64,000 nucleotides of DNA. It comes from Heptranchias perlo. Lineage: Eukaryota. The stretch is taken from contig NC_090363.1 of the NCBI RefSeq assembly GCF_035084215.1, forward strand, positions 4,278,001 to 4,342,000, read 5' to 3'. The position numbers were made by a program, and so were the translations under genes. The notes under the pieces are model-generated. The model saw only the letters and a program-made list of their open reading frames with translations, was not told the origin of the DNA and did not search any database. Shown piece after piece: positions 8,729 to 63,424 of this stretch; the first letter of the stretch is position 1; every line of letters begins with the position of its first letter.

Positions 8729-11700
8729 ATGAACGACGAGAAGACATTGTTGGGTCTTGAGGCTGGCAGGGAGATTGTCATTGAACAGCCAGCGTCTCAG
8801 GGCAGCCGATTGCTCAAGTTGATCTGTACAGTTACAGTTCTGGTGTTTGTGGCTGTTTCTTTGTATCTGTTATTCAGTCAGATTGGATTTCCGCCTTCCA
8901 ACCAGCCTGGCCGGGTATGTAAGATCTCTTCCAAACATCAAGGGGGTTTTAAAATAAATATATAATTCCTTCTCTTTAACCTTCCTTTTATTTAAAGATT
9001 GAAATCTTGTTTCGTTTGTGTTTTAGTTCTGTCTAATTGTGGGTCCAGTCTCTGTATTGTCCTTATGTTAAACCCCATGGGTTGAATCTCATCCTTGTTA
9101 AATCAGTGATGTGACTATGTGTTGCCCCGTTCTGAGGGAAGGGGGGGTGAATTTCCTGCGAGTTTCTCGACTGGCTCTAATTTCGACGGTTTGCCCCGAA
9201 TTTCTGCCGAAATTGCAGAAGCTCCGAGGAAATTCAACCCCCCCGGTTATTCCAGCCCGGTGGTCAACCAGCCCCACTTCTGCCCACCATGAGGCCAACT
9301 TTCCTCTTCCCGGGTGCTGGGAAGAGGCGCACAAAACACTTGTCGCAAATTTCGAGTGCAAACTGCCCGCGATTTGAGTGTTTTAAGTGAAATGAGTCCA
9401 GCCTGTGCCCGGATTTATGATCAGCACTGAGGAGGAACATCTGGATGAATGTTTAACACATCTGTGGGACATTCCTCTGTCTGCTGTTGTCACAGGGGCT
9501 TTAACCCGTCAATTTTAGAGGGGATTTAGTGAGTCCGTCACAACAGTGGACACGGTAATCATAGGAACACATTCTGGGGGGGATCGTTAAATGGGAGGGA
9601 TCGTTAAACGGGAGGGATCGTTAAACGTGGGATCGTTAAATGTGGGATCGTTAAACGGGAGGGATCGTTAAACGGGAGGGATCGTTAAACGGGAGGGATC
9701 GTTAAACGGGAGATCGTTAAACGGGAGGTATCGTTAAACGTGGGATCGTTAAATGTGGGATCGTTAAACGGGAGGGATCGTTAAACGGGAGGGATCGTTA
9801 AACGGGAGGGATCGTTAAACGGGAGATCGTTAAACGGGAGGGATCGTTAAACGGGAGGGATCATTAAATGTGGGATCGTTAAACGGGAGGGATCGTTAAA
9901 CGTGGGATCGTTAAACGGGAGGGATCGTTAAACGGGAAGGATCGTTAAACGGGAGGGATCGTTAAATGGGGGGGATCGTTAAACGGGAGGGATCGTTAAA
10001 CGTGGGATCGTTAAACGGGAGGGATCGTTAAACGGGGGATCGTTAAACGGGAGGGATCGTTAAACGTGGGATCGTTAAACGGGAGGGATCGTTAAACGGG
10101 GGATCGTTAAACGGGAGGGATCGTTAAACGGGAGGGATCGTTAAACGTGGGATCGTTAAACGGGAGGGATCGTTAAACGGGGGATCGTTAAACGGGAGGG
10201 ATCGTTAAACGGGAGGGATCGTTAAACGTGGGATCGTTAAACGGGAGGGATCGTTAAACGGGGGATCGTTAAACGGGAGGGATCGTTAAACGGGGGATCG
10301 TTAAACGGGAGGGATCGTTAAACGTGGGATCGTTAAACGGGAGGGATCGTTAAACGGGGGATCGTTAAACGTGGGATCGTTAAACGGGAGGGATCGTTAA
10401 ACGTGGGATCGTTAAACGGGAGGGATCGTTAAACGGGGGATCGTTAAACGGGAGGGATCGTTAAACGTGGGATCGTTAAACGGGAGGGATCATTAAATGT
10501 GGGATCGTTAAACGGGAGGGATCGTTAAACGTGGGATCGTTAAACGGGAGGGATCGTTAAATGGAGGATCGTTAAACGGGAGGGATCGTTAAATGGGGGG
10601 GATCGTTAAACGGGAGGGATCGTTAAACGGGGGATCGTTAAACGTGGGATCGTTAAACGGGAGGGATCGTTAAACGGGGGATCGTTAAACGTGGGATCGT
10701 TAAACGGGAGGGATCGTTAAACGTGGGATCGTTAAACGGGAGGGATCGTTAAACGTGGGATCGTTAAACGGGAGGGATCGTTAAACGGGGGATCGTTAAA
10801 CGGGAGGGATCGTTAAACGGGAGGGATCGTTAAACGTGGGATCGTTAAACGGGAGGGATCGTTAAACGGGGGATCGTTAAACAGGAGGGATCGTTAAACG
10901 GGAGGGATCGTTAAACGTGGGATCGTTAAACGGGAGGGATCGTTAAACGGGGGATCGTTAAACGTGGGATCGTTAAACGGGAGGGATCGTTAAACGTGGG
11001 ATCGTTAAACGGGAGGGATCGTTAAACGGGGGATCGTTAAACGGGAGGGATCGTTAAACGGGAGAGATCATTAAACGGGAGAGATCACATCTGCTGCCTG
11101 TTATACGCCACACCTGATATTAGGTTCTATTGAAGTCAATGAGACCCAATTATCAGACGGGGCGTAGAACAGGCAGACGATTCGATACTGATTGCTTTGC
11201 ACAACTGCCCGGGACTGATTTCTACCCCGAAGTGTCCGTTGAGGTCAGCAGTAATATCTAGGCTTTGGTGTGAATCTCCTGTTTAATCTCGAACTCTCTC
11301 TGTTTCCTTCTGCAGAAAGCAGCACTGAGAGAAGCTGAGAATCTGCCTGCTAACAGTGGTGAGCGCTCCCTGCCTCTCCCTCCCTCTCCCTCCCTGCCTC
11401 TCACCCTGTCTGTCTCTCTCTCTCCCTCTCACCCTGTCTGTCTCTCTCCCTCCCTGCCTCTCACCCTGTCTGTCTCTCTCTCTCCCTCCCACCCTGTCTG
11501 TCTCTCTCCATCCCTGCCTCTCACCCTGTCTGTCTCTCTCCATCCCTGCCTCTCACCCTCTCACCCTGTCTGTCTCTCTCTCTCCCTCCCACCCTGTCTG
11601 TCTCTCTCCATCCCTGCCTCTCACCCTCTCACCCTGTCTGTCTCTCTCCCTCCCTGCCTCTCACCCTCTCACCCTGTCTGTCTCTCTCCCTCCCTGCCTC

Positions 11701-14700
11701 TCACCCTCTCACCCTGTCTGTCTCTCTCCCTCTCTGTCTTTCTCCCTCTCTCTCCCTCTCCGCCTCTGTCCCTCTGCCTCTCTGTCTCTCTTTGCCTGTC
11801 TGATCTCTGTCTCTCTCCCTCTCTGTCTCTCTCCCTCTCTCTCCCTCTCTCTCCCACTCTGCCTCTCACCCTCTCTGTCTCTCACCCTCTCTGTCTCTCT
11901 CCCTCTCTGCCTCTCACCCTCTCTGTCTCTCTCCCTCTCTCTCCCACTCTGCCTCTCTCCCTCTCGTCTCTCTCCCTCTCTNNNNNNNNNNNNNNNNNNN
12001 NNNNNNNNNNNNNNNNNNNNNNNNNNNNNNNNNNNNNNNNNNNNNNNNNNNNNNNNNNNNNNNNNNNNNNNNNNNNNNNNNNNNNNNNNNNNNNNNNNNN
12101 NNNNNNNNNNNNNNNNNNNNNNNNNNNNNNNNNNNNNNNNNNNNNNNNNNNNNNNNNNNNNNNNNNNNNNNNNNNNNNNNNNNNNNNNNNNNCTCTCTCT
12201 CCCTGCCTCTCTCCCTCTCTCTCTTTCTATCTCTCTGTCTCTCTCTTTCTATCTCATTGTCAGTCAGTTTTCGGTACAGGTATATTATAATAGTGACTGA
12301 GAGTCCGGCTTTTCTGTTCCAGGTCTGCCTGTTCTCATGAAGCAGGTGGGAAACGATCTGACAACGAAAATCGCAGCTCACCTGACAGGTACGAGTCGAT
12401 ATTTGACGTTAATAGTCGTTTAATAGGCTATCAGAGGAGGAGTCAATAACTTCCGTGATGATAAACACCACAGTCAGCAGGCTTCACATGAATCTGTTAA
12501 CGTGCCCTTCCTGATATCACACACCACAATTCTAACCTTAATTACCGTTCATTTTTGACCTCCTGACGTACTTCTTCTGCCCTTTTGTGGTATCTGGTCC
12601 CCTCTCTCGTGTCTCTCACCGGCTGCAGCTGCCCTCTAGTGTCTGGTGCACGCGCCAGGATGATCAGTGAGTGTCCCGTGGGCTATTAAACCAGGGTGGG
12701 CATCACAAGTCGGGCTCTATCCGAGTCTGATCTACCGAGAATCTGCTCTACTGTAACCAAGGACCTGAAGAAAAGAGGAGGCTGAGGGGGTGACCTGACC
12801 GGGGTCTTTAAAATGATGAAAGGGTTTGATAGGGTAGACGTAGAGAAAATGTTTCCACTTGTGGGGGAGGCCAGAACTAGGGGGCCATAAATATAAGATA
12901 GTCACTGATAAATCCAATAGGGAATTCAGGAGAAACCTCTTTACCCAGAGAGTGGTGAGAATGTGGAACTTGCTTACCACAGGGAGTAGTTGAGGTGAAT
13001 AGTGTAGATGGATTTTAGGGGAAGCTCGATGAGGGAGAAAGGAATAGAAGGATATACTGATAGGGTGAGATGATGAGGGGAGGGAGGAGGCTCGTCTGGA
13101 GCATAAACACCAGCATAGACCAGTTGGGCCGAATGGCCTGTCTCCCTGCTGTAAAATTCTGTGCGAGCTTAAGATCAACGTAATTAAGTTTAAACTGTTT
13201 ATCAGAACCAGAAGAGATGAGCTGGGTGTTTGTGTGTCTGATTCTGAATGCATTTTTAATTTTTACATCTTATTTCTCCTCTCCCGTTTTCTCTCTCCCT
13301 CTCCACTCCCCACCGACCGCTCCCAAAAGCTCCACCTCAGGCTGGGATGCAGCTCCTGCCCTACGATAGCTCATCCAAGGGCTCGTGTATGAGCCAAGGC
13401 AGTGAGTTTTGCCAGACTATTTGACCAGCAGCTGAGTCCAATGCTGCCCTCACGCACATGCAGTGCCAGCAGAGGTGATCGGATAGCGATCGAGAGCAGG
13501 AAGCTGCCTCAATTTGTTTGTCCTCACTAATCCTGTGCTCAGATCCACTCTCCGGGGATTGTCTGAGCAGGTGCGTGAGAACGCCATCACCGCCAAGCCC
13601 CCACCCCCACTCCGAGTCACACACCCCCATCCCGACTTGGAAATATATCGCCCGTTCCTTCATCGTCGCTGGGTCAAAATCCTGGAACTCCCTTCCCAAC
13701 AGCGCTGTGGGAGAACCTTCACCACACGGACTGCAGCAGTTCAAGAAGGCGGCTCACCACCACCTTCTCGAGGGGCGGGCGATAAATGCCAGCCTCGCCA
13801 GCGACGCCCACATCCCCGAGAATGAATTGAAGGCAAAAGACCATCCTCGGGCTTAGTTCAGAACCGGGCAGTGCGTTAACCAAGTGACCTGTTGTGTGCC
13901 TGTGCGGAGCATGGTCCAGTTGGGCCGAATGGCCCTTGTTTCTGTGCTGTGCATTCCATGTGATGCTTAGCTTTTAAGAGGCGAGAGAGATGAAGGAAGG
14001 AAGCAAGAAATGGAAAATGGAAGGAATCAAAAGAAGTTTTGCAGTTGCGCCAAAGTGCATATGCGTCCAGCAGAGGGCGATCCTCTGGCATTGTAGCACT
14101 GCAGGGGCTGCTGCACTCTTCTGACGGGCAGGCTGCCACTCAACAAGATGCTCCTGCTAGCCTGAATTCTAAAGTCTTCCAGTCCCTCAACGCTTAAAAA
14201 CCCCGCTCTCCTTCATGAGCACAAAAACAGAAGCCCCCTCTCCCTCCCCGCACCCACCCCCCCACAAAAAAATAAAAGTCAATGCTGTCCATTTACGTTT
14301 CCTCTTTATCTCTGTCTCTCTCAGCCGACCCCAACAAAGACAAGACCAAAGAGCTGACCTGGCAGGAGGAGGCCGGCGTTGCGTTCTCTTACGGGGTCGA
14401 GTTCTTCAACAACAGCCTGCTGATCAGGAAGCCGGGTTTTTACTTTATCTACAGCCAGGCGGTCTTCTACGCCGGCAGCTGCAATGGACACACCATCTTC
14501 CTGAGCCACGGCATGCACAAGCTCTCCTTGGCTTACCCAGAGGAGACCATCCTGCTGAAGGCCACCAGGTCTGCCTGTCACAACGGTCGGCACGACGACC
14601 CCTGGTACAAGACCTCCTACCAGGGCGCCATATTCGAGTTCGAGGCCGGAGACAGGGTCTTCTCCAGGGTCAGTCAGGAGGTGGTGAAGTATTTGGACAC

Positions 14701-14740
14701 GAAAGAAGGGAAGACGTTTTTCGGGATATTTGCTTTGTGA
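8729..14740 (+). CDS. TNF/lymphotoxin-like ligand, paralog 1 (4 coding exons, 236 aa)
   Basis: Exons 8729-8914, 11316-11358, 12323-12388, 14325-14740, all GT-AG, phases 0/1/1, 711 nt in frame. Exon 1 encodes a cytoplasmic tail plus hydrophobic TM (LICTVTVLVFVAVSLYLLF). Exon 3 ends KIAAHLT. Exon 4 carries THD motifs: LTW, GFYFIYSQAVF, Cys pair, WYKTSYQGAIF, FFGIFAL. An N gap lies in intron 2. Confidence 0.93.
9578..11086. repeat. 15/17-bp minisatellite (GGGAGGGATCGTTAAAC and variants) in intron 1 of paralog 1
   Basis: Near-invariant core GATCGTTAAAC with alternating GGGAGG, GTGG or GGGG spacers. Confidence 0.97.
11365..12255. repeat. CT-rich simple repeat in intron 2 of paralog 1, containing an assembly gap (N 11982-12192)
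   Basis: Low-complexity CTCT/CCCTG tract and 211 Ns. Confidence 0.95.
12770..13160 (+). mobile_element. CR1 3' fragment in intron 3 of paralog 1
   Basis: GGCTGAGGGG...TTTACCCAGAGAGTGGTG...GGGCCGAATGGCCTG CR1 3' end. Confidence 0.8.
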
Positions 14741-14747
14741 GGAATGC

Positions 14748-18529: not shown

Positions 18530-21500
18530 ATGTTCTGAAGGGGGAGGGTGAACAGCCAGAGGTCGTGGTCCATATCGGTACCAACGACATCGGTAAAAAA
18601 AGGGATGAGGTCCTGCAAGCAGAATATAGGGAGTTAGAAAATAAATTAAAAAGCAGGATCTCTAAGGCTAAATTTAAATCTGAGATTGATAGCTTTTTGG
18701 CAACCAAAGGTATTAAGGGATATGGGCCAAAGGCAGGTATATGGAGTTAGATCACAGATCAGCCATGATCTTATCAATGGCGGAGCAGGCACGAGGGGCT
18801 GAATGGCCTACTCCTGTTCCTATATTCCTATGTTCCTATGTCCTATGTTCCTATGTAGTAATCTCAGGATTACTCCCAGTGCCATGTGCAGAAATAGGAG
18901 AATAGACCAGATGAATGCGTGGCTTGAGAGATGGTGTAGGAGGGAGGGGTTTAAATTCCTGATTCTGGGAAAGGCGGGACCTGTACAAGCTGGACGGGTT
19001 GCACCCAAGCAGAATTGGGACCAATATCCTCGTGGGGGCATTTGCTGGTTCTGTTGGGGAGGGTTTAAACTAGTATGGCAGGGGGGTGGGAACCAAAGGG
19101 CAGGTACAGATAGGACAAATTCAGACCAGGAAACGGGAAGTAGAAAGCAGTTAGTGACGTAGTTAGTGACTCAGGAAGGCAAAAGAAGCAAAGGTTAAAT
19201 AGTGTTCAGCACAGGACTTTGATGGGGTTAAAGGATATATACTTCAATGCAAGGAGTATTACAAACAAAGCAGATGAGCTAAGGGCATAGATAGACACAT
19301 GGCAGCATGATATCATTGCTGTAACGGAAACCTGGCTTAAAGAGGGGGATAATTGGCAGCTCAATATCCCTGGATATAGAGTTTTCAGGCAGGATAGAGT
19401 GGGTGATAAAAAAGGAGGGGGTCTAGCATTATTAGTTATAGAATCAATTACAGTTGTGAGAAGGGATGATATGCTAAATGGATCATCAATCGAGGCCATA
19501 TGGGTTGAGCTAAGAAATAAAAAAGGGGCAGTCACACTACCAGGAGTGTACTATAGACCCCCGAATAGTGAAAGGGAGATAGAAGAACAAATATGTAGGC
19601 AAATTTCTGAGTGCAAAAATAAGAGGGCAATAATAGTAGGGGACTTCAACTACCTGAACATCAACTGGGATTCAAACAGTGTGAGGGGCACAGAGGGCGC
19701 AGAATTCGTGATCGGTGTCCAGGAGAACTTTTTTAGCCAGTACGTGACAAGCCCAACAAGAGGGGATGCAATTCTAAATTTAGTCCTGGGAAATGAAGAT
19801 GGGCAAGTGGGTGAAGTGACAGTGGGTGACCATATTGGGGATAATGACCACAATTCAGTTAGTTTTAGCATTATTATGGAAAAGGACAGAGTTAAATCAG
19901 GAGTAAATGTTTTAAATTGGGGGAAGGCATATTTTACAGAACTAAGAGGTGATTTGGCAGAAGTGGACTGGACACAACTACTTGAGGAGAAATCAGTGGC
20001 AAGCCAGTGGGAGGCACTAAAAAGTGAAATTCTACGGGTACAATGCAGACATGTCCCCTCAAAGAAAAAGGGTGGCACTGCCAAATTTAGAGCCCCCTGG
20101 TTGTCTAGAAGTATACGGGGCAAGATAAAGCAGAAAAAGAAAGGTTATAACTGTCACAGAAAACTAAATACTGTAGAAAGCCTAGAGGAGTATAGAAAGT
20201 ACAGGGATGACGTAAAAAAGGAAATAAGGAAAGCAAAGAGAGGGCATGAAAAAATATTAGCCAGTAAGACTAAAGAAAACCCAAAGATGTTTTATCAGTA
20301 CATTAAGAACAAGAGGATAGCTAAGGAAAAGGTGGGACCCATCAGGGATGATAAGGGTAACTTGTGTGTCGAAGCAGAGGATGTGGGTAGGGTTTTAAAT
20401 GAATATTTTGTCTCCGTATTCACAAAGGAAAGGGATAATCCAGATGTAGTAGTTAAAGAGGAGAGGTGTGAAATATTGGATAAGGTAAACATAATGAGAG
20501 AGGAAGTACTAGAGGGACTGGAATCCTTGAAAGTTGATAAGTCACCAGGGCCGGATGGATTGTTTCCTAGGCTATTGAAGGAAGCCAGGGAGGAAATAGC
20601 GGATGCTCTGAGGATCATTTTCCAATCCTCACTAAATACAGGGGAGGTACCGGAGGACTGGAAGACTGCAAACGTACTACCATTGTTTAAAAAGGGTACG
20701 AGGGAAAGGCCGAACAATTATAGACCGGTCAGTCTTACCTCGGTGGTGGGCAAACTATTAGAATCAATACTGAGAGATAGGATAAACGGTCACTTGGAAA
20801 GGCATGGTTTAATCAGGGATAGTCAGCATGGATTTGTTCAGGGAAGGTCATGCCTTACAAATCTGATTGAATTCTTTGAGGAAGTGACAAGGAGGATTGA
20901 TGAGGGTAGTGCAGTGGATGTTGTCTACATGGATTTTAGTAAGGCATTTGACAAGGTCCCACATGGCAGACTAGTCAGAAAGGTAAAAGCCCATGGGATA
21001 CAGGAAAATGTGGCCAATTGGATCCAAAATTGGCTCAATAACAGGAAACAAAGGGTAAAAGTCGATGGATGTCTTTGCGAATGGAAATCAGTTTCCAGTG
21101 GTGTGCCACAGGGCTCAGTGTTGGGTCCCTTGCTGTTTGTGGTATATATTAATGATTTGGACTTGAATGTGGGGGCATGATTGGCAAATTTGCAGACGAC
21201 ACAAAAATTGGCCGTGGAGCTGATAGTGAAGAGGATAGCTGTAGACTCCAAGAAGATATCAATGGGTTGGTGGAGTGGGCGGAAAAGTGGCAAATGGAGT
21301 TCAACCCGGAGAAGTGTGAGGTAATGCACTTAGGGAGGGCAAACAGTAAAAGGGAATACTCAGTAAACGGGAATATATTGAGAGGGGTAGAGGAAGTGAG
21401 AGACCTTGGAGTGCATGTGCACAGGTCCCTGAAGGTGGCAGTACGGGTAGATAAGGTTGTGAAGAAGGCATACGGAATGCTCTCCGTTATTAGCCGAGGT

Positions 21501-22542: not shown

Positions 22543-23909
22543 CCACAATGATACTATGTTTATCAAATTCCCTCTTAAATATTGTGATTGGCTGGGCTTC
22601 AATTAGCCACTGTTAGGAACAGGAGGAGGCCATTCAGCCCCTCGAGCCTGCTCCGCCATTCAATTAGATCACGGCTGATCTGTATCTTAACTCCATTTAC
22701 CCGCCTTGGTTCCATATCCCATATTCACTCGGAATACATTCCATTTTCTAATAACCCTTCACATGAAATGTAGACTCCTCCAGTGTTCCCTCTTTAAGCT
22801 TTTAATCCTCCAATCCTGGCCTCTCGCGCATCCCCCACTTCCTTCGCCCCACCATTGGCGGCCGTGCCTTCGGCTGTCCGGGCCCTAAGCTCTGGAATTC
22901 CCTCCCTGAACCTCTCCACCTCCCTACCTCGCAGTTAAACCCTGAAATCCAGAAGTTGATGTCCAAGATGCACTGCCCTTTGTAAACTGCGTGAAAATCA
23001 CATCTGTCTCACCATTAAAATACATTGGATGGACTGAAGTTTCAGTACTTAACTCATAGATATGGACTAAACTCGCCAACGAGAGTTAGGGCTTGTGCAT
23101 TCCAGACCAAGTACCCTTTAATGGCATGGTAGGTCTTAATTACGGCCAAACAACCTCTGTGGCACTGAAAATTAACTATTACAAGTGTGGAGACTCATCC
23201 CTTCAGTTTTTAATTATTGTTGGAGATTTTTTTTAAAATGTAAATACATTTTTTTTTTCCTTTCTGTCTCTTTTATCTCTGTCTCTTAATCCAATCTTTC
23301 TTTCCCTCTCTTTATTTCTCTTTCTGGACCTGATATGACCTTGAATTCACCATTCTAACTCCCTGGTTCTGTCTCAGCGCTGATTTTAACGATGCTTCAA
23401 TCAGAATGGTTAAGGAGATAAACAGGTTACTTGCCCTGTTCGCACAGGCCCCTGATATCCCGTAGAGGTGTTTGGATGTCCCGCTGGGCAAAACCCCATA
23501 GAAAGTCTGTGGCCAAGTGCAAATCCAGCCGTTTGTTCACCGCTCACAGTAAATCCTGGCTCGATATCTCTTTATGTGGCTTGGTGTCAAATTTTGTCTC
23601 ATAAGAACAACAACTACTTGCATTTATATAGCGCCTTTAACATAGTAAAACTTCCCAAGGCGCTTCACAGGAGCGATTATCAAATAAAATTTGACACCGA
23701 GCCACGTAAGGAGATATTAGGACAGGTGACCAAAAATTTGGTCAAAGAGGTAGGTTTTAAGGAGGGTCTTAAAGGAGGAGAAAGAGGCAGAGAGGTTTAG
23801 GGAGGGAATTCCAAAGATTGGGGCCCAGGCAGCTGAAGGCACGGCCGCCAATGGTGGAGCGATTAAAATTGGGGATGCGCAAGAGGCCAGAATTGGAGGA
23901 ACGCAGAGA

Positions 23910-27120: not shown

Positions 27121-27148
27121 GGGATTTTCCGATGGCCAACTTTAAATA
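27121..27148 (+). promoter_or_regulatory. Paralog 2 proximal promoter: consensus NF-kB site plus TATA-like box
   Basis: GGGATTTTCC (27121-27130) matches GGGRNWYYCC. TTTAAATA is at 27141-27148, about 105 nt before the ATG. Confidence 0.65.
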
Positions 27149-27252: not shown

Positions 27253-30200
27253 ATGAGTAACGAGAGCATGCTGTCAGATGTTGAGGCGGGCGAAGGGCTG
27301 GTCGAGAAGCAGACTGATGCTAAGAGCAGTCGTCTCTGTCAGACTCTCACCGTGATCACTATTCTGGGCTTGGTGACTTTCTCTTCATATCTGTTACTCT
27401 GTCAACTTGGAGTTTTATCTTCAAACCAGGTGCGTAGATTTATTTTAGAAAATAAATTCAGTTCAGTCTTTACCAGCTCCCTACTTCCTTTCTATCTTTC
27501 ATTCTATCTTTCTCCCTTTTCTTCCTTCCTTCCTTCCTTTCTCCTTTTCTTTCTTTCTCTCTTTCTTTCTTTCCCCCTTACTTTCTCTCTTTCCCTCTCT
27601 CTTTCCCCCTTACTTTCTCTCTTTCCCCCTTTCTTTCCCCCTTACTTTCTCTCTTTCTTTCTTTTCCACTTACTTTCTCTCTTTCCCTCTTACTTTCTCT
27701 CTTTCCCTCTTTCTTTCCCCCTTACTTTCTCTCTTTCCCCCTTTCTTTTTCTCTTTCTTTCTCTCCCACTTACTTTCTCTCTTTCCCTCTTACTTTCTCT
27801 CTTTCCCTCTTTCTTTCCCCCTTACTTTCTCTGTTTCCCTCTTTCTTTCCCCCTTACTTTCTTTCTTTACCCCTTACTTTCTCTCTTTCCCTCTTACTTT
27901 CTCTCTTTCCCTCTTACTTTCCCCCTTACTTTCTCTCTTTCCCCCTTTCTTTCTCTCTTTCTTTCTCTCCCACTTACTTTCTCTCTTTCCCACTTACTTT
28001 CTCTCTTTCTTTCCCCCTCACTTTCTCTCTTTCCCTCTTTCTTTCCCACTTACTTTCTCTCTTTCCCCCTTACTTTCTCTCTTTCCCTCTTTCTTTCCCT
28101 CTTACTTTCTCTCTTTCTTTCCCCCTTACTTTCTCTCTTTCCCCCTTACTTTCTCTCTTTCTCCCTTTCTTTCTCTCTTTCTTTCTTTCCCCCTCACTTT
28201 CTCTCTTTCCCCCTTTCTTTCTTTCGTTCCCTCTTTGTTTCTTTCATTCTCTCTTTCTTTCTCCCATTCTTTCTCTCTTTCTTTTTTGCTGTCATTTTTG
28301 TTTGTATGAAAATATGTTGTCCAGCATTTTAAAGATTTTAGGAGAAGACAGTTCACTTTGTGCATAAAATTCCTTGCTCGTGGGTAAATATCTCTTAACC
28401 AAATCTCTAGTCGTCTATCCTGCTGTCTCTGTGTTAGTTTATAAGTTAGTGAGTAATATATCTCCATATGGATATCTGTCCACCTGTAGAACATAAATTT
28501 GCTCTTCCTGTGCTATTTCATGAACCATGTAATCAATTAAAACAATCTGCTCTATTTTTGGGGCAGATTTTGACTTTGAGTGATAATGTAAAATGGGTGA
28601 TAGCAAATCGGCCGCCCGTTTTACACAGAATCATACAGCATAGGAGGCCATTCAGCCCATCGTACCTGTGCCGGCTCTTTCAAAGAGCTATCCCATTCCT
28701 CCTTGCACTTTCCCCATTGCCCTCCAATTTTCTCCCCCCGATCTCTCACGTTTTTTTATCTCCATTGATGTAAAACGGGCTACTGATTGGCTATCACCCG
28801 ACTTACACTATGGCGCAAGGCTCTAAAACCTGACGCCTTTGTGTTTACATTGTATAATCAATGCTATAAAATAACGAGCTTCTTTATTGCTGCACCTCAG
28901 CCCTCACTCCCGGTTCAATCTGACTACGTTTTATTTAATCTCTCTGTAAGTCCACCGTTGAATTTGCCCCCCTTGGATTTGGGGTCCAGGTCAAGCTATC
29001 TGAAGGAGGTCCTGTCTCTGGACATTTCTCCGTCCTGTCTGACACAGGACGATTAGCCTATTAGCGAAGGGAGAGGGCGTTCAGTAGTGTCACCACCGAC
29101 ATCTTCCCCCACCAGAGGAAGTCGGCAAGTGGTCGATCGCGTGAGATAGGACAAATCTGATCAGTGAAATCTCGTCGGTACAGGAAGGACACACTGCAAA
29201 GGTTCGCAGGGCAGGTGTGTCGCTAAGAGTCAATGTGGAAGTCTCTTAACTACCCTCTGAAGTGGCCTAGAGAGCCAATCGGAGCAGCTAGCAACGGGCG
29301 TAGGATCGCCAACTCTGGTTGGACATATTCCTGGAGGTGTCATACGGATATATGTACGAGCATACGAATTAAGAGCAGGAGTAGGCCATTCGGCCCCTCG
29401 AGCCTGCTCTTCCATTTGATAAGATCATGGCTGATCTGATTGTGACCTCAACCCTACTTTCCCATCTACCTACTATAACCTTTGGCTCCCCTGTTAATCA
29501 GGAATCTATCTAACTCCGCCTTAAAGAATATTCAATGACCCTGCCTCCACCGCTCTCTGGGGAAGGGAGTTCCACAGACTCACGACCCTCTGCGAGAAAA
29601 CATTTCTCCTCATCTCCGTCTTCAATGGGAGACCCCTTATTTTTAAACTGTGGCCCCGAGTTCTAGTCTCTCCCACAAGGGGAAACATCCCCTCAGCATC
29701 TACCCCTTCTAGTCCCCTCAGGATCTTATATGTGTCAATAAGATCACATCTCATTCTTCTAAACTCCAGTGTATACAGGCCCAACTTGTCCAACCTTTCC
29801 TCATAAGATAACCCCCTCATCCCAGGAATCAGTCGAGTGAACCTTCTCTGAACCGCCTCCAAAGCAATTATGTCCTTTCTTAAATAAGGAGACCAAAACT
29901 GCACACAGTATTCTAGATGTGGTCTCACCAATGCCCTGTACAACTGTAGCAAAACATCTCTACTTTTATATTCCATTCCCCTTGCAATAAATGACAACAT
30001 GCCATTTGCCTTCCTAATCACTTGCTGTACCTGCATACTAACTTTTTGTGATTCATGTACTAGGACACCCAGATCCCTCTGTACCTCAGAGTCCTGCAAT
30101 CTCTCTCCATTTAAATAAAATACTGCTTTTCTATCACATGACGTCCTGCCTCTAACGGCCCCGCCCCACTCTCCCGCCATTGGTAACCCCTTATTCATGA

Positions 30201-32736
30201 TGTCCCGCCTTCCCACACCAATTGGGAAGCAAATGGTCCCGTCGTTACCCAATTGGATGATTCTTGATTGTCGGTCAAAGAGACTTTTCTCCCTCTTGTC
30301 CGATATTTTTATAACTTTGTAAACAAAAGTGTTCAAAGAGAAGAAACACTATTTTTTTTCTGCCTGGTATTTTGCTCACAGCGGTGGCCTGGAGATTAAC
30401 CTTTAATTCCTGGAGACTCCAGGACAATCCCGGAGGGTTGTAGGGCTGGAGGTTGTCACCTTGCATTTCTGTAAGCTTGAGCTCATTCAAAACTCTGCTG
30501 CCCCGTATCCTAACTCACACCAAGTCCCGTTCTCCCATCACCCCCTGTGCTCGCTGACCGACATTGGCTCCCGGTCCGGGAACGCCTCGATTTCAAAATT
30601 CTCATCCTTATTTTCAAATCCCTCCGTGGCCTCGCCCCCTCCGTTTCTCTGTCACCTCCTCCAGCCCTACAACCCTCCGAGATCTCTGCGCTCCTCCAAT
30701 TCCTGCCTCTTGCGCATCCCCGATTTTCATCGTTCCACCATTGGCGGCCGTGCCTTCAGCTGCCTGGGCCCGAAGCTCTGGAATTCCCTCCCTAATCCTC
30801 TCCCCCTCTCTCTCCTCCTTTAAGACGCTCCTTAAAACCCAGCGTTTGGTCACTTGTCTTGTTTTCTCCTTATGTGGCTCGGTGTCAGATTTTGTCTGAA
30901 AACACTCTTGTGAAGCGCCTTGGGGTCGTTTTACTACGTTAAAGGCGCTATATAAATGCAAATTGTTGTTGTTGTTACAGAGATAGGGAGGGGCGAGGCC
31001 ACAAAGGGATTTGAACATATGTCTTTGTTTCCTTCTCTAGAAAGCAGCAGTGACCGTGGAGCCTGTCCAGGCACAGAGTGTGGGAGATGTTCCATCGCTA
31101 TCTGTTAATCCAGGTGAGTGCTCCCTTCTCATGGTCACCATCATCTGTTGCCAGTTTTCAGTACTTGCACATTACACAAGCGACTCGCCAGGTGATCCAG
31201 ACTGAGCGTTCAACTCTGCTTTTTCAGGTCTGCCTCGTCTCATGAATGTGGTGGGCAGAGCACCAAAGAAGATTGCAGTCCATCTGACAGGTACGAGACT
31301 GCCTCTGTCTATGAATCTAACGCTAGTCTGTCTTCACTCCAGACGTCAGACTCCAGACACCACACTTAGTTACACGTGTAAAATGTTCTTTAACCCAAGG
31401 GAGAAGGGAAGCCCGTCCTTGACCTGGAGCCTACAATTTACAATCCACCCACTGACTGAACTCAGAGGTTTACAAACAGCCACAGCTGGCTGTGTTTGCC
31501 TATTTGGGCCACTGCCCAAAGGGAGGTTCTTGAGCAGCGACCTCAATGGAACTGGCTGGGTTAGCAGTTAAACATCACAAGCGTGTGGGAGATCCTGCAC
31601 TCGTGAAGCATTCTCTCTCTGTACAGGTGAAGCACTCTCCCCTTGTGCAGGGGAAGAACTCTCCACCTGTACTGGTGAAGCACTCTCCGCCTGTACTTGT
31701 GACGCACTCTCCGCCTGTACTTGTGACGCACTCTCCGCCTGTACTTGTGACGCACTCTCCGCCTGTACTTGTGAAGCACTCTCCGCCTGTACTTGTGAAG
31801 CACTCTCCGCCTGTACTGGTGAAGCACTCTCCGCCTGTACTGGTGAAGCAGTCTCCTCCTGTATAGATGAAGTACTTGCTTTCTGTACAGGTGAAGCACT
31901 CTCCGCCTGTACAGGTGAAGCACTCTCTCTGCCTGTACAGGTGAAGCACTCTCTCTGCCTGTACAGGTGAAGCACTCTCTCTGCCTGTACAGGTAAAGCA
32001 CTCTCCGCCTGTACAGCTGAAGCACTCTCTCTGCCTGTACAGGTGTAGCACGCTCCACCTGTACAGGTGAAGCACTCTCTCCCTCTGTACAGGTGAAGCA
32101 CTCTCCGCCTGTACAGGTGTAACACTCTCCGTCTGTACAGGTGTAGCACTCTCCGTCTGTACAGGTGAAGCACTCTCCGCCTGTACAGGTGTAACACTCT
32201 CCGCCTGTACAGGTGTAGCACTCTCCGCCTGTACAGGTGAAGCACTCTCCGCCTGTACAGGTGTTAACGTACCTTTCTACCCTTGTGATGAATTTCACTC
32301 TCATCTTCTTCTCCTCCTCTGCTCAGCCTCCCCAACCACACGAGGGAAGCGAAAAGTGATGTGGCAGAAGAAGGGAGTCCTCCCTGAGGGCGTGGGGTTC
32401 AGGGACAACAGTCTGGTCATCAAGACCCCCGGTCTGTACTTTGTCTACACACAGGTGGTCTTCTACAGCAGGGGCTGCCAGGACCAGTCCATCTTCCTCA
32501 GCCACGAGCTCGCCAAGCTCTCGACTTCCTACAGATCCAAGGTGACGCTGCTCAGCGCCATGAAGTCCGCCTGCCACGCTGGCCGACACGACGACCCCTG
32601 GTACAGGGCCTCCTACCAGGGGGCCGTCTTCGAGTTTGCGGAGGGAGATAAGATCTTCGCCAGGGTTGGTGCGAACACAGCGCATTACGTGAACACTGAG
32701 GAAGGAAAGAGCTACTTTGGATTATTTGCTTTGTGA
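27253..32736 (+). CDS. tnf: TNF-like ligand, paralog 2 (4 coding exons, 240 aa); N-terminus most similar to mammalian TNF
   Basis: Exons 27253-27429, 31041-31113, 31228-31290, 32327-32736, GT-AG, phases 0/1/1, 723 nt in frame. N-terminus MSNESMLSDVEAG resembles human TNF MSTESMIRDVELA. TM LTVITILGLVTFSSYLLL; KIAVHLT; GLYFVYTQVVF; WYRASYQGAVF; YFGLFAL. The symbol denotes family-level similarity; 1:1 orthology is unproven. Confidence 0.92.
27480..28290. repeat. CT-rich simple repeat (CTTACTTTCTCTCTTTCC-like) in intron 1 of paralog 2
   Basis: Low-complexity polypyrimidine tract. Confidence 0.93.
29346..30130 (-). mobile_element. CR1 3' fragment in intron 1 of paralog 2
   Basis: RDLGVLV...LYRALVRPHLEYCVQFWSP...FSQRVV translation plus CR1 3'UTR. 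Confidence 0.9.
31600..32262. repeat. About 24-bp minisatellite (GTGAAGCACTCTCCGCCTGTACAG) in intron 3 of paralog 2
   Basis: Visible periodicity; ends about 65 nt before the exon 4 acceptor. Confidence 0.93.
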
Positions 32737-42404: not shown

Positions 42405-42503
42405 GTCCTGTCTCTGGCAGAAACGCAGAGAGAGCTGAGAGCGAGACGATCGGTAACCAAGACACGACTGGTACTAGCGGAGCTCCGACTGACACCTGAG
42501 ACC

Positions 42504-44338
42504 ATGAGTGATGAGCAGAAGTTGCTGGACCTTGAGAATGGAGGAGTGCTGGTGGTCAGGAAGACAGAGGAGAAGAGCAACTGTTTCTGGCAGGCTCTCT
42601 GTGCAACGGCTGTTCTGGGCTTGCTGATTGTGTCTTCGTATCTGATACTCTGTCAACTTGGAGTTCTACCTTCCAACCAGGTGTGTGGCTCGCTTTAGAG
42701 CTTGATATTATTCAGCGTTCACCGAGCGAGTTAGTTCATAGCAGTCCGTTCTCTGAGAAATTCTTTATCTGGTTTCAATCTAGATCTGAGAATCAGTCAG
42801 AGTCTGAATGCACAGTTTCTCTGTGTGATGCAGATAAACTGCCTGTAGATCTGGGTTGAACCTTTGTACAGATGGTCATGTGTTTCATGGAGATTTGGGG
42901 TGAATTTCACATGTTAATCTCGTTCCTTGATTTATTTCTACAGAAAGTAACACTGAACTCTGGGAATGCCCAAATACAGGATCGGAGAACTCGGTCAGTT
43001 GTGACGACCAGCCCTGGTAACAGTGGTGAGTGCTCTCTGTATCAATCTCCATCAATCTCCATCAATCTCTCTCTTTATCAATCTCTCTCCATCAATCTCT
43101 CTCTCTCCATCAATCTCTCTCTTTATCGCCCTCTCACTATCAATCTCTCTCTCTATCAATCTCTCTCTTTATCAATTTCTCTCTTTCTCTCTCTCTCTAT
43201 CTCTCTCTCTCCATTTCTCTCTCTCTTTCTTGCTCTCCATCTCTCTCTCTCCACCTCTCTCTCTCTCTCTCTATCTCCATTTCTCTCTATCTCTCTCTCT
43301 CTCTCATTGTCAGTCAGTTTTCAGTAAAGGTACATTATAATAGTGACTGAGAGTCTGGCTTTTCTGTTCCAGGTCTGCCTTACCTCACGAAGCAGGTGGG
43401 AAACGATCCAATCAGGAAAATTGCAGCTCACCTGACAGGTATGAGACTATTCTCCACGTTAACACTAGCGCACCCCCTGCGGAAGTGTTCACTGTTGGGT
43501 GGGGTAAGATGCAGTAGAAGTTTTGGGCGATGTGGTTAAAAAAGGGAAGTGATTGGACATCGATGATGTCATCTTTCCTTGGTTCCTAAGAGGTTTGAGC
43601 CAATTGGGCCAACAGGACATTGGGAACGTGTATTTTGATTGGCTCCAATTTTCTAGGAACAATCAAATGGAGCCCTCTCCCCCCTCCCCCCCAATCTTTT
43701 AGTTTTGTTGACCAACTTAGGTATAAGTGGTCAGGAATCCGGTAGAACCAGGCGGGAGGAGCAAATGGGTCCATGCTAAAAAGTTAACGAACTTTTTAAC
43801 AGAAAATGAAACGAGAGACAAGAAGGAGGGCGTATTATGTGGAGGGATGTCATGACAGGAAGAATATTGCGCCGTTCCTCAGTCCTAGTCCATCCTTATG
43901 TTGTTCCCTCTCTTTCTCCTCTCAGCTTCACAAAGCATTGAAGGAAAGAATGTGATTTGGCAGAACGAGGCGGACTCCACCTTATCTGAGGGCGTGGAGT
44001 TCAAAGACAACAGACTCGTCATTAAGACCCCCGGTCTGTACTTTGTCTACACCCAGGTGGTCTTCTCCGGAATGGGCTGCCAGGGCCAGTCCATCTTTCT
44101 CAGCCACGAACTCTCCAAGTTATCGGCGAGCTACCCGGAGGAATCCTTGCTACTGAAAGCCACCAAGTCCACCTGTCACTACGGCAAACACGGAGAGCCC
44201 TGGTACAAGACCTCCTACCAGGGGGCCATATTTGAGTTCGAGGAGGGAGATCAGATCTTCTCCAGGGTCAGCGAGGAGGAGGTGGGATATGTCGACACTG
44301 CCGAGGGAAAGAGCTTCTTTGGAATATTCGCTTTGTGA
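42504..44338 (+). CDS. TNF/lymphotoxin-like ligand, paralog 3 (4 coding exons, 245 aa)
   Basis: Exons 42504-42680, 42944-43025, 43373-43438, 43926-44338, GT-AG, phases 0/1/1, 738 nt in frame. TM ALCATAVLGLLIVSSYLIL; KIAAHLT; THD GLYFVYTQVVFSG...WYKTSYQGAIF...FFGIFAL. Confidence 0.95.
43030..43305. repeat. (ATCAATCTCTCT)n / CT repeat in intron 2 of paralog 3
   Basis: Low-complexity tract between exons 2 and 3. Confidence 0.9.
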
Positions 44339-44824
44339 GGAGCCCAAGTTACTTCTAGCGAATGGTGAGCGACGATGACTGATCGAGATTTTCAAATTGA
44401 AAGACAGCAGAAACTGTTCGGGACACATGGTCCTATCTGGCACTAATTGGACAAAGAGACTCATCTCTCCACCATTTTATTTAAAGACTTGTAGAGACGG
44501 AAAATATCAAATGTATTCGGATCGGAAGGATTGGGCAGTGGGGTGGGTTATCACACTGCACTTTCACCTCTGTCACTCCAGATTCACACCCAGCACAGGG
44601 CGGATCTGAATGACCTACTCCTGTCCCTATAATGTTCCTGTTCTCTGAGACACCTTTAACACTGGGTGTGTGGGTATGTGTCTCAGGCTGCACTGCTGTG
44701 CGGGATTCTTTATGTTAAAGTAGATGAAGTGTGTTGTAAATGTGTAACGGGGCAGTTGTAGGATAACAGTGCTCTGAATACGCTGATTTTCTCATTTAAG
44801 GAAACCCCATCATCAACTGGTCCC

Positions 44825-44943
44825 TTTATTTAATTTATATTTAATTTATATTTAATGTTATTTAAACTGGTACTCCTCATGGAGAGAGTAATTAGAAAAT
44901 CCCAACAGCTAACAAGTGAGCTATCAGGTCTGATGTTCAGACT
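44825..44943 (+). promoter_or_regulatory. Paralog 3 3'UTR AU-rich element cluster plus triloop hairpin
   Basis: Clustered ATTTA pentamers at 44825-44866, then GGTCTGA-TGT-TCAGACT at 44927-44943. Homologous blocks occur in the other paralogs. Confidence 0.7.
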
Positions 44944-46190: not shown

Positions 46191-46904
46191 GAGCACCAGT
46201 TTGCAAGCCTGATGGAGCGTATCAACAAATCAGAAGCTGGAGGGATTGGACAATTTGTGGCCTATGGTGTTAACATAAGAACGTTTTAAATCAAGAGAAA
46301 GTCAGTTTGCCCAATCAAAGGCAATGCTGATGATGAACAGGCATGGATACCCTGGGGTCATTACCCCGAGATGTCCTCCTGCTGGACAGATTGACCTGAG
46401 GAGACTGAGCGAGGTTTGTCCCTTCCGGTTGGTTCTTTGCACCTTATTCCTTATTCTTCGGTGCAGCCCCTCTAGATTTCCCCAGGAAGGGCTTTCCGTG
46501 TCCATCACTCAAGGGAACATACCTCTCGGCCCAGTGTATCCTCGCTGATGCTCCCGGCGATGACAGGCAATGACACTTGGTCACTTGCATCTCCTGCTCG
46601 CAGCCAAACCTCGCCTGTGTAATACTTGCACCACTGCAACTCTCCTGCATGTGTCAGGGATTTGGTCCATCTCGTAAATCGACCGGACGATAATCGGTGG
46701 AGTGAACCATAAATGCCTCATTTGCTGCTGCGAGTGTGTCACCAATAGCCAGGTCAGAAACATGACCTCTCAACCTCCTCATAATTGTCACAACTGCCAA
46801 AAAGGCTCTGATCACTGATTAGGCCGAGCAAGACCGGTCGTACAGAACCTCCAGGAACTCGGAGCCTGTCCTTCGAAAACCCGGGGGAGAGAAAGAAAGA
46901 CAGA

Positions 46905-59530: not shown

Positions 59531-60650
59531 CAGATTCTCAATCTACTGATCCCCTCTCTCCAATTCTCAATCTACTGACCCCCTCTCTCAGATTCCCAAT
59601 CTACCGATCCCCTCTCTCCAATTCCCAATCTACTGATCCCCTCTCTCAGATTCCCAATCTACGGATCCCCTCTCTCCAATTCCCAATCTACTGATCCCCT
59701 CTCTCAGATTCCCAATCTACCGATCCCCTCTCTCAGCTTCCCAATCTACCGATCCCCTCTCTCCAATTCCCAATCTACTGATCACCTCTCTCCAATTCCC
59801 AATCGACTGATCCGCTCTCTCCAATTCCCAATCTACCGATCCCCTCTCTCCAATTCCCAATCTACTGATTCCCTCTCTCAGATTCCCAATCTACTGATCC
59901 CCTCTCTCCAATTCCCAATCTACCGATCCCCTCGCTCCAATTCCCAATCTACTGATCCCCTCTCTCAGATTCCGAATCTACTGATCCCCTCTCTCCAATT
60001 CCCAATCTACTGATCCCTTCTCTCCGATTCCGAATCTACTGATCCCTCTCTCCAATTCCCAATCTACTGATCCCTTCTCTCCGATTCCCGATCTACTGAT
60101 CCCCTCTCTCAGATTCCCAATCTACTGATCCCCTCTCTCCGATTCCCAATCTACTGATCCCCTCTCTCAGATTCCCAATCTACTGATTCCCTCTCTCCAA
60201 TTCCCAATCTACCGATCCCCTCTCTCCAATTCCCAATCTACTGATCCCCTCTCTCCAATTCCCAATCTACTGATTCCCTCTCTCAGATTCCCAATCTACC
60301 GACCCCCTCTCTCGGATTCCCAATCCACTGAACCCCTCTCTCCAATTCCCAATCTACTGATCCCCTCTCTCAGATTCCCAATCCACTGATCCCCTCTCTC
60401 CAATTCCCAATCTACTGATCCCCTCTCTCCAATTCCCAATCTACTGATTCCCTCTCTCAGATTCCCAATCTACCGACCCCCTCTCTCAGATTCCCAATCC
60501 ACTGAACCCCTCTCTCCAATTCCCAATCGACTGATTCCCTCTCTCAGATTCCCAATCCACTGATCCCCTCTCTCCAATTCCCAATCTACTGATTCCCTCT
60601 CTCCAATTCCCAATCTACTGATCCCTTCTTTCCGATTCCCGATCTTCTGA
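59531..60650. repeat. Same 29-bp minisatellite, inverted (about 38 units), downstream of paralog 5
   Basis: Unit CAATTCCCAATCTACTGATCCCCTCTCTC, the reverse complement of the array at 45903-46190. Confidence 0.93.
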
Positions 60651-62095: not shown

Positions 62096-63424
62096 TCACA
62101 AAGCGAATATTCCAAAGAAGCTCTTTCCCTCGGCAGTGTCGACGTATCCCACCACCTCCTCGTTGACCCTGGAGAAGATCTGATCTCCCTCCTCGAACTC
62201 AAATATGGCCCCCTGGTAGGAGGTCTTGTACCAGGGCTCTCCGTGTTTGCCGTAGTGACAGGTGGACTTGGTGGCTTTCAGTAGCAAGGATTCCTCCGGG
62301 TAGCTCGCCGATAACTTGGAGAGTTCGTGGCTGAGAAAGATGGGCTGGCCCTGGCAGCCCATTCTGAAGAAGACCACCTGGGTGTAGACAAAGTACAGAC
62401 CGGGGGTCTTAATGACGAGTCTGTTGTCTTTGAACTCCACGCCCTCAGATAAGGTGGAGTCCGCCTCGTTCTGCCAAATCACATTCTTTCCTTCAATGCT
62501 TTGTGAAGCTGAGAGGAGAAAGAGAGGGAACAACATAAGGATAGAATAAGGAAGGACTTGCTTTTATATAACACCTTTCACGACCTCAGTGCGTCCCAAA
62601 GTATTTTACAGCCAATGAAGTACTTTTGAAGTGTAATCACTGTTGTAAAGTAGGAGACGCAGCAGCCAATTTGCGCATAGCAAGATCCCACAAACAGTAA
62701 TGAAATAATGACCAGGTAATCTGTTTTTTAGTGATGTTGTATGAGGGAGGAATATTGGCCGGGACACCGGGGAGAACTCCCCTGCTCTTCTTTTATGTCC
62801 ACCTGAGAGGGGCAGACAGGGCCTCGGTTTAACGTCTCATCTGAAAGATGGCACTTCTGACAGTGCAGCACTCCCCCAGTACTGCAGTTGAAGCCTCCAA
62901 AGTCATTAGAGAAAAGATACATTCTTGCCAGTCCTGTTGGCTTTGAAGCAAATCCCCAAAGGTGAAAGACCAACACCTGACTTACTGCAGACATCCAAGT
63001 ATTCCTTGGCTTTTAACAATGGTAGTTCCCAAACTATCCCTTCCCTTCTGTTCTTCCTAAACCATTTGCCACTTGTAGCTCAGGTGGTGGCTAGGGTGAA
63101 TCTCCCCCTGATATTTCCCCGTCTGCTCGTATGGACAAGCCAAACCTCAGCTTGGTGTCTCTCGGACAGTGATCGGGATGAGATAGAGATCTCTCACCTG
63201 CACCCCACTGATTCTGATGCCCACTGCAGTTGAATAGCCTACTGCCACTCTCAGTCTCAGCTCACACATCAAGAATGACCACCGGAGAATCATGCTACAG
63301 TAAGAGTGGCTATCTTCAGGACCTGGGTCTATTAATGACATTAAAAATAGTCTCGTACCTGTCAGGTGAGCTGCGATTTTCCTCCTCGGATCATTTCCCA
63401 CCTGCATCATGTGATGAGACTGAC
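62096..63424 (-). CDS. TNF/lymphotoxin-like ligand, paralog 5 (exons 3-4 only; exons 1-2 expected beyond the window end)
   Basis: Exon 3 is 63424-63359 (GQSHHMMQVGNDPRRKIAAHLT, TAG acceptor, GT donor). Exon 4 is 62508-62096 and encodes an intact THD nearly identical to paralog 3. The intron-2 microsatellite runs to the window edge. Confidence 0.9.
62552..62885 (-). mobile_element. SacSINE1-like SINE in intron 3 of paralog 5
   Basis: Same family motifs; absent from the corresponding intron of paralog 3. Confidence 0.8.

What the first reader, a model, noticed from the sequence alone, without database searches (positions are those of the whole stretch)
8729..63424. Tandem array of at least five membrane-anchored TNF/lymphotoxin-like cytokine genes
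Seen: five paralogs in about 55 kb (+,+,+,-,-). Four are complete with no stops or frameshifts, and the two visible exons of the fifth are intact. Each complete gene has four coding exons in phases 0/1/1 and a type II TM anchor. Known: the mammalian MHC class III cluster has three genes (LTA, TNF, LTB), LTA is secreted, and LTa/LTb form heterotrimers. Inference: this is a lineage-specific expansion of the TNF/LT locus in a probable shark, giving three divergent ligand types (1, 2, 3/4/5) that could form homo- or heterotrimers. The cluster may extend beyond the window. I cannot tell whether it has already been described.
Basis: partly seen in the sequence, partly recalled or inferred. Interest (0 to 1): 0.85.

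Follow-up and report, generated by a model that had tools for sequence, protein, structure and literature searches.

The report
Known shark TNF cluster, patchwork-copied genes
Five intact copies of a membrane-anchored, TNF-like inflammation signal gene sit in a cluster already described in other sharks and rays, so the expansion is not new; three of the copies are near-identical in some parts and old and different in others, likely because they keep overwriting each other's DNA.

Summary
Observation confirmed. All five genes are intact, with four coding exons, phases 0/1/1 and an N-terminal anchor; gene 5 is complete just beyond the window. Each equals an existing RefSeq 'TNF-like' protein of Heptranchias perlo. 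Three more TNF-family genes lie upstream, making eight, in the MHC class III region.

The cluster is published: six TNFSF1/2 genes in white shark, eight in whale shark, and a similar gene order in sawfish. All three ligand types have ray orthologues, and a species-specific origin is rejected (AU p=7e-5). The genes are co-orthologues of both TNF and LTA; none is LTB.

Added here: genes 3-5 are about 98% identical in exons 1 and 4, 82-88% in exon 3, and unalignable in most of intron 3 and the promoters. Gene 1 shares a 72-nt intron tract at 93-96% with genes 3 and 5. This points to segment-wise gene conversion, a known process that this scan also noted in two other genomes. One guessed-RNA contig splices gene 1. 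A mixed-trimer model passes, but by family likeness.

The parts
8729..14740 (+). Gene 1 (type 1), 236 aa; exons 8729-8914, 11316-11358, 12323-12388, 14325-14740
   Evidence: =P0033, XP_067829775.1; exon 3-4 junction in one contig of run X5; orthologues in sharks and rays
27253..32736 (+). Gene 2 (type 2; the white shark orthologue is named 'tumor necrosis factor'), 240 aa; exons 27253-27429, 31041-31113, 31228-31290, 32327-32736
   Evidence: =P0015, XP_067829846.1; clade with NP_001409322.1 and ray genes at 100/100
42504..44338 (+). Gene 3 (type C, 'lymphotoxin alpha-c' in white shark), 245 aa; exons 42504-42680, 42944-43025, 43373-43438, 43926-44338
   Evidence: =P0024, XP_067829847.1
53807..57184 (-). 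Gene 4 (type C), 245 aa; exons 57184-57008, 56744-56663, 55927-55862, 54219-53807
   Evidence: =P0023, XP_067829848.1
62096..64000 (-). Gene 5 (type C), 245 aa; exons 3-4 at 63424-63359 and 62508-62096; exons 1-2 beyond the window (G000:C42:4342915-4342739 and 4342245-4342164)
   Evidence: =P0001, XP_067829849.1
43886..46203 (.). Left arm of an inverted repeat (gene 3 exon 4 plus about 1.9 kb downstream); partner arm 62548-60350 (gene 5); 95% and 88% identical in two pieces
42433..43311 (.). Inverted homology of gene 3 (5' UTR to intron 2) with gene 4 (57255-56373); intron 1 is 97% identical; homology stops about 70 nt upstream of the ATG
12251..12322 (+). Last 72 nt of gene 1 intron 2: 69/72 identical to gene 5 and 67/72 to gene 3, but only 49/84 to gene 4 and 31/72 to gene 2 (candidate cross-type conversion tract)
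44824..44870 (+). AU-rich element-like block about 490 nt after the gene 3 stop; homologous blocks near 16285(+, g1), 52866(-, g4) and 61609(-, g5); an AU-rich run near 33800(+, g2)
   Evidence: motif-level only, ARE definition recalled
27121..27130 (+). Perfect NF-kB consensus match 132 nt upstream of the gene 2 ATG, just before a TATA-like element; one-mismatch sites at -152 (g1) and -164 (g5)
   Evidence: background 1.8% (0 mismatches) and 15% (up to 1) of 3000 random 110-nt windows; consensus recalled

Best explanation
These are five intact shark co-orthologues of mammalian TNF and lymphotoxin-alpha in the MHC class III TNF cluster, in three types whose orthologues occur in both sharks and rays, and genes 3-5 are likely kept alike piece by piece by gene conversion between oppositely oriented copies. 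Shown: gene structure, orthology groups, neighbourhood, mosaic identity and one spliced contig for gene 1. Inferred: each product would work like TNF, as an inducible type II membrane protein that trimerises through its C-terminal domain, may be shed in the stalk, and signals through TNFR1/TNFR2-type receptors. Inferred: conversion resets the anchor exon and most of the receptor-binding exon among genes 3-5, while promoters, stalk exons, intron 3 and (gene 4) the 3' UTR stay distinct, so nearly the same ligand would be made under three regulatory and shedding regimes.
For: Identity: exact match to RefSeq proteins. Best solved-structure hits are TNF for all three types tested (E 3e-29, 4e-28, 7e-20), with LTA weaker and LTB at 4e-07 or absent. 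Both domain cysteines align with TNF's. Tree of 71 rows: the elasmobranch clade holding all five (100/99) is sister to bony-vertebrate TNF+LTA (96/88), together 98/92. AU tests reject type 2 with tetrapod TNF (p=4e-6), type C with tetrapod LTA (p=5e-10) and a clade of the five window genes (p=7e-5). Synteny on C42: sialidase at 3.80 Mb (-), CK2-beta at 5.50 Mb, GoLoco gene at 9.94 Mb, RING-B-box gene at 4.50 Mb; the sawfish order is NEU1(-)...LTB-like(+)...TNF(+),TNF(+),LTA-like(-),TRIM39-like. Conversion: exon 1 97.7-98.3%, exon 4 98.1-98.5%, exon 3 82-88%, intron 3 unalignable but for its last 21-40 nt or a shared repeat. Differences are concentrated in CDS 177-345 (Fisher p 9e-13, 5e-5, 2e-10; window chosen after seeing the data) and site patterns are mixed. 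Homology ends 68-86 nt upstream of the ATG. Across 27 type-C proteins, exon 1 is 93% within and 60% between species; in two bamboo sharks exon 1 groups by species (95, 98% against 90, 86%) while exons 2-3 group by paralogue (92, 86% against 57, 48%). Cross-type 72-nt intron tract.
Against: No function was tested. No receptor, shedding or induction data. The trees rest on about 145 columns, no mammalian LTB or teleost TNF-N sequence was among the fetched rows, and several bony-vertebrate rows were labelled by me. Recent duplication followed by fast stalk evolution could mimic part of the mosaic: pS in exons 2-3 is 0.04-0.18 on about 36 sites, and for g4-g5 it is no higher than in exon 1. The protein-level exon 3 signal between types is weak: the best type-C match beats the best other type-1 match by 0-2 of 22 residues in most rows and is lower in two. 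Only 3 of 5 promoters have a good kB-like site. Matching LOC ids to protein accessions in white shark and sawfish is inferred from order and names.
Confidence: 0.78

Rival explanations
1. Birth-and-death without conversion: types 1 and 2 are old, but genes 3-5 arose by recent whole-gene duplications in this lineage, and their stalk exons, intron 3 and promoters then diverged fast or were replaced by insertions.
For: Genes 3-5 form a species clade (100/99). Type C copy number varies widely: 2 found in sawfish, 4 in white shark, many records in Chiloscyllium punctatum. Genes 3 and 5 share about 2.3 kb downstream. pN is close to or above pS in exons 2-3.
Against: Neutral intron 3 and the promoters cannot be aligned while intron 1 is 96-98% identical. 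An oppositely oriented terminal gene also exists in sawfish and white shark. Stalk types are shared across species while exon 1 is species-specific. Gene 1 shares an intron tract with genes 3 and 5.
Confidence: 0.14
2. The three types are subunits of a combinatorial ligand system: co-expressed paralogues assemble into mixed trimers, as LT-alpha and LT-beta do, with their own receptor preferences.
For: A model of gene 3 x2 + gene 1 x1 scored 0.90 against a best control of 0.01; runs agree in at least 89% of contacts and partner pLDDT is at least 86 (the mark was reached by 51 of 78 solved and 2 of 108 mismatched microbial pairs, and on eukaryotes by 39 of 65 solved pairs without a like complex and 2 of 126 unrelated pairs). 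32 of 51 interface positions are invariant in all five genes, against 35 of 93 elsewhere (p=0.005). Run X5 holds contigs of both gene 1 and type C.
Against: TNF-family trimers are solved many times over, so the pass shows likeness only; close cousins passed in 10 of 12 cases in the tool's own test. The same interface enrichment is seen against mammalian LTA (28/51 against 28/93), and it is not significant for gene 2 against gene 3 (p=0.28). All five are anchored, so none needs a partner to reach the surface as LT-alpha does (recalled). Co-expression in one cell is unknown.
Confidence: 0.2
3. Genes 3-5 are an assembly artefact (uncollapsed haplotypes).
For: Exons 1 and 4 are about 98% identical, and about 460 nt after the stop are identical between genes 3 and 5. 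Read depth could not be tested.
Against: There are three different bases at one site (44280: A/C/T), opposite orientations, intron 3 lengths of 487/1642/850 nt and three unrelated promoters. No duplicate was found on small scaffolds among 24 family matches. A multi-copy inverted layout also occurs in white shark.
Confidence: 0.02

Closest known systems
Shark TNFSF1/2 tandem (Marin 2020, PMC7674686, abstract, passages and section 7 read; Marin 2025, PMC11762692, abstract, passages, first part of section 3.2, section 3.4 and supplement rows read)
   Same: Same orthogroup and place: eight TNFSF1/2 genes in Rhincodon, six of them in tandem; 'TNFSF1/2 x 6' beside TNFSF-Fish1, -Fish6 and RGS3 in Carcharodon.
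   Different: Five copies here. This species is not mentioned in Marin 2025, and 'gene conversion' has 0 occurrences in its main text.
White shark and sawfish MHC class III TNFSF cluster (Verissimo et al. 2023, PMC10751288; passages and supplementary tables read)
   Same: White shark: four LTA-C (two +, two -), LTA-A, LTA-B, TNFSF33, TNFSF32 and a further LTA-B near NEU1. Sawfish: seven TNFSF genes ending in one minus-strand gene, between NEU1 and TRIM genes.
   Different: Three type-C copies here, against four and (inferred) two. The block's orientation relative to NEU1 matches sawfish and is inverted in white shark.
Mammalian TNF (TNFSF2) and lymphotoxin-alpha (TNFSF1)
   Same: Sister clade. 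TNF-like anchor, cysteine pair, four coding exons and AU-rich 3' block (TNF's exon layout and ARE are recalled).
   Different: Not 1:1 orthologues of either. None has the secreted LTA-type N-terminus, judged by hydropathy only.
Interlocus gene conversion in tandem or inverted paralogues (general process, recalled)
   Same: Segment-limited identity including intron sequence, and species-wise grouping of some exons.
   Different: Here it spans an inverted trio and apparently reaches a paralogue older than the shark-ray split.

Membership tests
TNF superfamily ligand | C-terminal TNF homology domain (PF00229) | tested here: met
   5 of 5 over the cut-off (96.9-115.1 bits)
TNF superfamily ligand | Type II membrane topology (N-terminal anchor after a short polar tail) | tested here: met
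   hydropathy peak from residue 31-32 in 5 of 5; no dedicated topology or signal-peptide predictor was run
TNF superfamily ligand | Trimer formation | tested here: inconclusive
   one mixed-trimer model, 0.90 against control 0.01, explained by likeness to solved trimers; homotrimers not modelled
TNFSF1/2 orthogroup (TNF+LTA) | Groups with bony-vertebrate TNF/LTA | tested here: met
   98/92; SH-aLRT 94
TNFSF1/2 orthogroup (TNF+LTA) | Located in MHC class III beside LTB/TNFSF32/TNFSF33 | tested here: met
   MHC class I matches (43 of 43) lie on other, small contigs, so linkage to class I is not shown
TNF (TNFSF2) 1:1 orthologue | Type 2 forms a clade with tetrapod TNF | tested here: not met
   AU p=4.4e-06; group named after the tree was seen
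Lymphotoxin-alpha (TNFSF1) 1:1 orthologue | Type C forms a clade with tetrapod LTA; secreted form | tested here: not met
   AU p=5.3e-10; membrane anchor present
Lymphotoxin-beta (TNFSF3) | Closest to LTB | tested here: not met
   LTB chain E=4e-07 for gene 3, absent for genes 1 and 2; C42:4.088 Mb groups with a ray 'lymphotoxin-beta-like' at 100/99; no mammalian LTB in the tree
TNF/LTA-type cytokine | Binds TNFR1/TNFR2; shed by a protease; inducible | not testable with these tools
   needs bench work
Paralogues under gene conversion | Tracts of high identity, including non-coding DNA, beside old unalignable DNA; segment trees disagree | tested here: met
   DNA was available for this species only, other species compared as proteins

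The most novel reading that the evidence does not exclude
Sharks run a modular TNF system. Conversion between inverted copies, and across types older than the shark-ray split, keeps anchors and trimer cores interchangeable while each copy keeps its own promoter, stalk and 3' UTR. Co-expressed copies then assemble mixed, all-membrane TNF/LT-alpha-type trimers with tunable shedding, an independent parallel to the mammalian LT-alpha/LT-beta heterotrimer. Rays, whose two type-C paralogues are not homogenised, would have left this regime.
Probability: 0.15. Interest if true: 0.65.

Novelty: new member of a known kind. Interest (0 to 1): 0.27.

Why it matters
The expansion itself adds one species to a published pattern. 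Three points are still useful. (1) These genes are co-orthologues of both TNF and LTA, so database names such as 'TNF' and 'LTA-c' should not be read as 1:1 orthology. (2) Segment-wise conversion means that trees of the TNF domain make old type-C duplicates look young and species-specific, which affects counts of duplications in TNFSF evolution. (3) Near-identical ligands under different promoters and stalks give a natural test of how dose, timing and shedding of TNF are tuned in an early-branching jawed vertebrate.

Tried and rejected
Haplotype duplication was rejected on sequence grounds. Depth could not be tested because only assembled contigs of one sample are held. No holder is on record as RNA; runs X6 and X7 gave no contig on the exons, which is no evidence either way. 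No contig joined gene 3 exons 3 and 4. A Roquin-type decay hairpin was sought with a recalled motif: no hit in the conserved 3' block. kB-like sites in genes 3 and 4 have two mismatches, at background level (62%). A Pfam scan of the 150 longest of 498 non-repetitive flank ORFs found only the three TNF exons, one RING-B-box exon, one endonuclease fragment and two sub-threshold hits. The careful tree of 109 rows did not finish and the quick tree was used; a 71-row subset was then built carefully. Redmond et al. 2022 (J Immunol), which set the shark names, is not held. I saw it only as cited in other papers, and it may already discuss conversion. Literature searches. In the listings I saw no paper on conversion in shark TNF genes or on this species' cluster, but subscription journals are not covered. 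PMC10450919 held only reference-list hits. Marin 2020's supplement was listed but not read.
Full report
1. Observation. A translated search of the window found five TNF-domain exons, four first exons and five third exons. Models from the DNA give four coding exons in phases 0/1/1, 15 of 15 GT-AG introns, no stops, and 236, 240, 245, 245 and 245 aa. Gene 5's first two exons lie just past the window. All five equal RefSeq 'tumor necrosis factor-like' proteins of Heptranchias perlo. Protein identity is 46-59% between types and 91-93% among genes 3-5.

2. Expression. One 477-nt contig of run X5 (RNA by guess, one sample) lies on 12322-12385 and continues on 14322-14436 with no differences. That is the predicted gene 1 exon 3-4 splice, allowing for a three-base ambiguity; the DNA run's contigs cross the same borders unspliced. 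Two X5 contigs cover exon 4 and the 3' UTR of type C. One carries gene 3 bases at three 5' sites, gene 5 bases at three 3' sites and two private bases. It may be a mosaic allele or an assembler chimera.

3. Surroundings. The genome has 24 PF00229 matches, eight of them on C42 between 4.088 and 4.343 Mb. The three upstream ones group with a ray 'lymphotoxin-beta-like', a bamboo shark gene that I take by position as TNFSF32/Fish1, and white shark 'TNF superfamily member 33'. A sialidase (3.80 Mb), a RING-B-box gene (4.50 Mb), CK2-beta (5.50 Mb) and a GoLoco gene (9.94 Mb) lie on the same contig. NEU1, CSNK2B and GPSM3 are listed in the white shark class III region. MHC class I matches lie on other, small contigs. 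The order NEU1(-), LTB-like(+), further TNFSF(+), a terminal minus-strand TNFSF and TRIM genes is that of sawfish; in white shark the block is inverted relative to NEU1.

4. Prior description. Marin 2020 reports eight TNFSF1/2-like genes in whale shark, six in tandem, and the same tandem in white shark. Marin 2025 lists 'TNFSF1/2 x 6' in white shark and TNFSF1/2 expansions in ten lineages. Verissimo et al. 2023 tabulate the cluster gene by gene. White shark proteins carry the curated names lymphotoxin alpha-c1 to -c4, tumor necrosis factor and TNFSF33.

5. Phylogeny. Trees of the TNF domain used 109 rows (quick) and 71 rows (careful, 145 columns), chosen by me from the fetched proteins. No mammalian LTB or teleost TNF-N had been fetched. 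All five genes fall in an elasmobranch clade (100/99), sister to bony-vertebrate TNF plus LTA (96/88; joint 98/92), apart from FASL, LIGHT and TL1A-like rows. Type 1 has shark and ray members, type 2 has shark and ray members (100/100), and type C has several copies per species that mostly group by species. AU tests reject type 2 with tetrapod TNF (p=4e-6), type C with tetrapod LTA (p=5e-10) and a clade of the five window genes (p=7e-5) (groups named after the tree was seen). Several bony-vertebrate rows are unnamed and were labelled by me from their sequence.

6. Mosaic among genes 3-5. Exon identities are 98% (exon 1), 88-96% (exon 2), 82-88% (exon 3) and 98% (exon 4). Intron 1 is 96-98% where shared; intron 3 aligns only at its last 21-40 nt or through a repeat. 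Upstream homology ends 68-86 nt before the ATG. Of 45 variable coding sites, 33 lie in positions 217-339 of 738; the longest invariant run is 163 nt (permutation p=0.0005), and sharing patterns alternate among all three pairs. Genes 3 and 5 are identical for about 460 nt after the stop and form inverted arms around gene 4. The last 72 nt of intron 2 are 93-96% identical among genes 1, 3 and 5, but 56-58% to gene 4, although type 1 predates the shark-ray split. In 27 type-C proteins, exon 1 is 93% within species (23 pairs) and 60% between (328 pairs). In two bamboo sharks exon 1 follows species while exons 2-3 follow paralogue, and in two rays the paralogues are not homogenised (65%). Against: synonymous sites are few, g4-g5 pS in exons 2-3 is not raised, and the cross-type exon 3 signal in proteins is slight. 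I put conversion at about 0.8.

7. Mechanism. Shown: anchor, TNF-type cysteine pair, an AU-rich block conserved in genes 1, 3, 4 and 5 and an AU-rich run in gene 2, and a perfect kB site in gene 2 with one-mismatch sites in genes 1 and 5 (consensus recalled; background 1.8% and 15%). Inferred from TNF biology (recalled): inducible, short-lived mRNAs that make membrane trimers, sheddable in the stalk and acting on TNFR1/2-type receptors. Genes 3-5 would supply almost one ligand domain (95-96% identical) under three promoters and stalks. Mixed trimers: a gene 3 x2 + gene 1 model scored 0.90 against a best control of 0.01, with at least 89% of contacts shared and pLDDT at least 86 (mark reached by 51 of 78 solved and 2 of 108 mismatched pairs; eukaryotes 39 of 65 and 2 of 126). 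Solved TNF trimers abound and close cousins pass, so this shows compatibility only. Interface conservation (32/51 against 35/93) is also seen against mammalian LTA.

8. Earlier notes of this scan. None fit this place. Two notes on other genomes describe conversion mosaics and two stalk types in shark TNF copies. I had reached both points before reading them; they are unchecked AI notes and not independent support.

9. Verdict. Real, intact, annotated genes of a published shark and ray cluster: a new member of a known kind. The conversion pattern is a clear instance of a known process that I did not find in print for this locus, with the caveat that Redmond et al. 2022 was not available. Interest 0.27.

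Noticed in passing
C42 cluster relative to NEU1 (G000:C42:3.80-4.50 Mb): The TNFSF block has the sawfish orientation here, but is inverted relative to NEU1 in white shark, which suggests a later inversion in the white shark lineage.
   Followed up: partly
cluster of P0046: Chiloscyllium punctatum has at least 16 RefSeq accessions for near-identical 238-aa type-C proteins in that cluster, and Hemiscyllium ocellatum four: a possibly much larger type-C array (isoforms not excluded).
   Followed up: no
window 42944-43025 (gene 3 exon 2): Only gene 3 has a minimal furin motif in its stalk (residues 73-76); genes 4 and 5 lack it. Gene 2 has one at 110-113, inside the TNF domain.
   Followed up: no
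window 44013-44504: An X5 contig is a gene 3/gene 5 mosaic with two private bases: an allele with a conversion tract, or an assembly chimera.
   Followed up: partly
ray proteins P0047/P0052 and P0053/P0055: The two ray type-C paralogues group by paralogue across species and are only 65% alike in exon 1, so homogenisation seems to have stopped in rays.
   Followed up: partly
window 45903-46192 and 59534-60650: A 29-nt minisatellite sits in both inverted arms (10 and 39 copies); TC-rich repeats fill intron 2 of genes 1, 3, 4 and 5, next to the borders of high-identity tracts.
   Followed up: no
window 1-2078, 9576-11086, 31603-32263, 36320-41500: Long tandem arrays (25-, 17-, 24- and 14-nt units); the second and third lie in introns of genes 1 and 2.
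   Followed up: no
window 19291-21177 (+), 23773-24978 (+), 47679-48692 (-): Long open frames that read like LINE endonuclease/reverse-transcriptase fragments (family recognised from memory, not searched).
   Followed up: no
G000 small contigs C1050, C1097, C1101, C1105 and others: All 43 MHC class I exon matches lie on contigs other than C42, many with identical scores, so the adaptive MHC is fragmented or multi-copy in this assembly.
   Followed up: no
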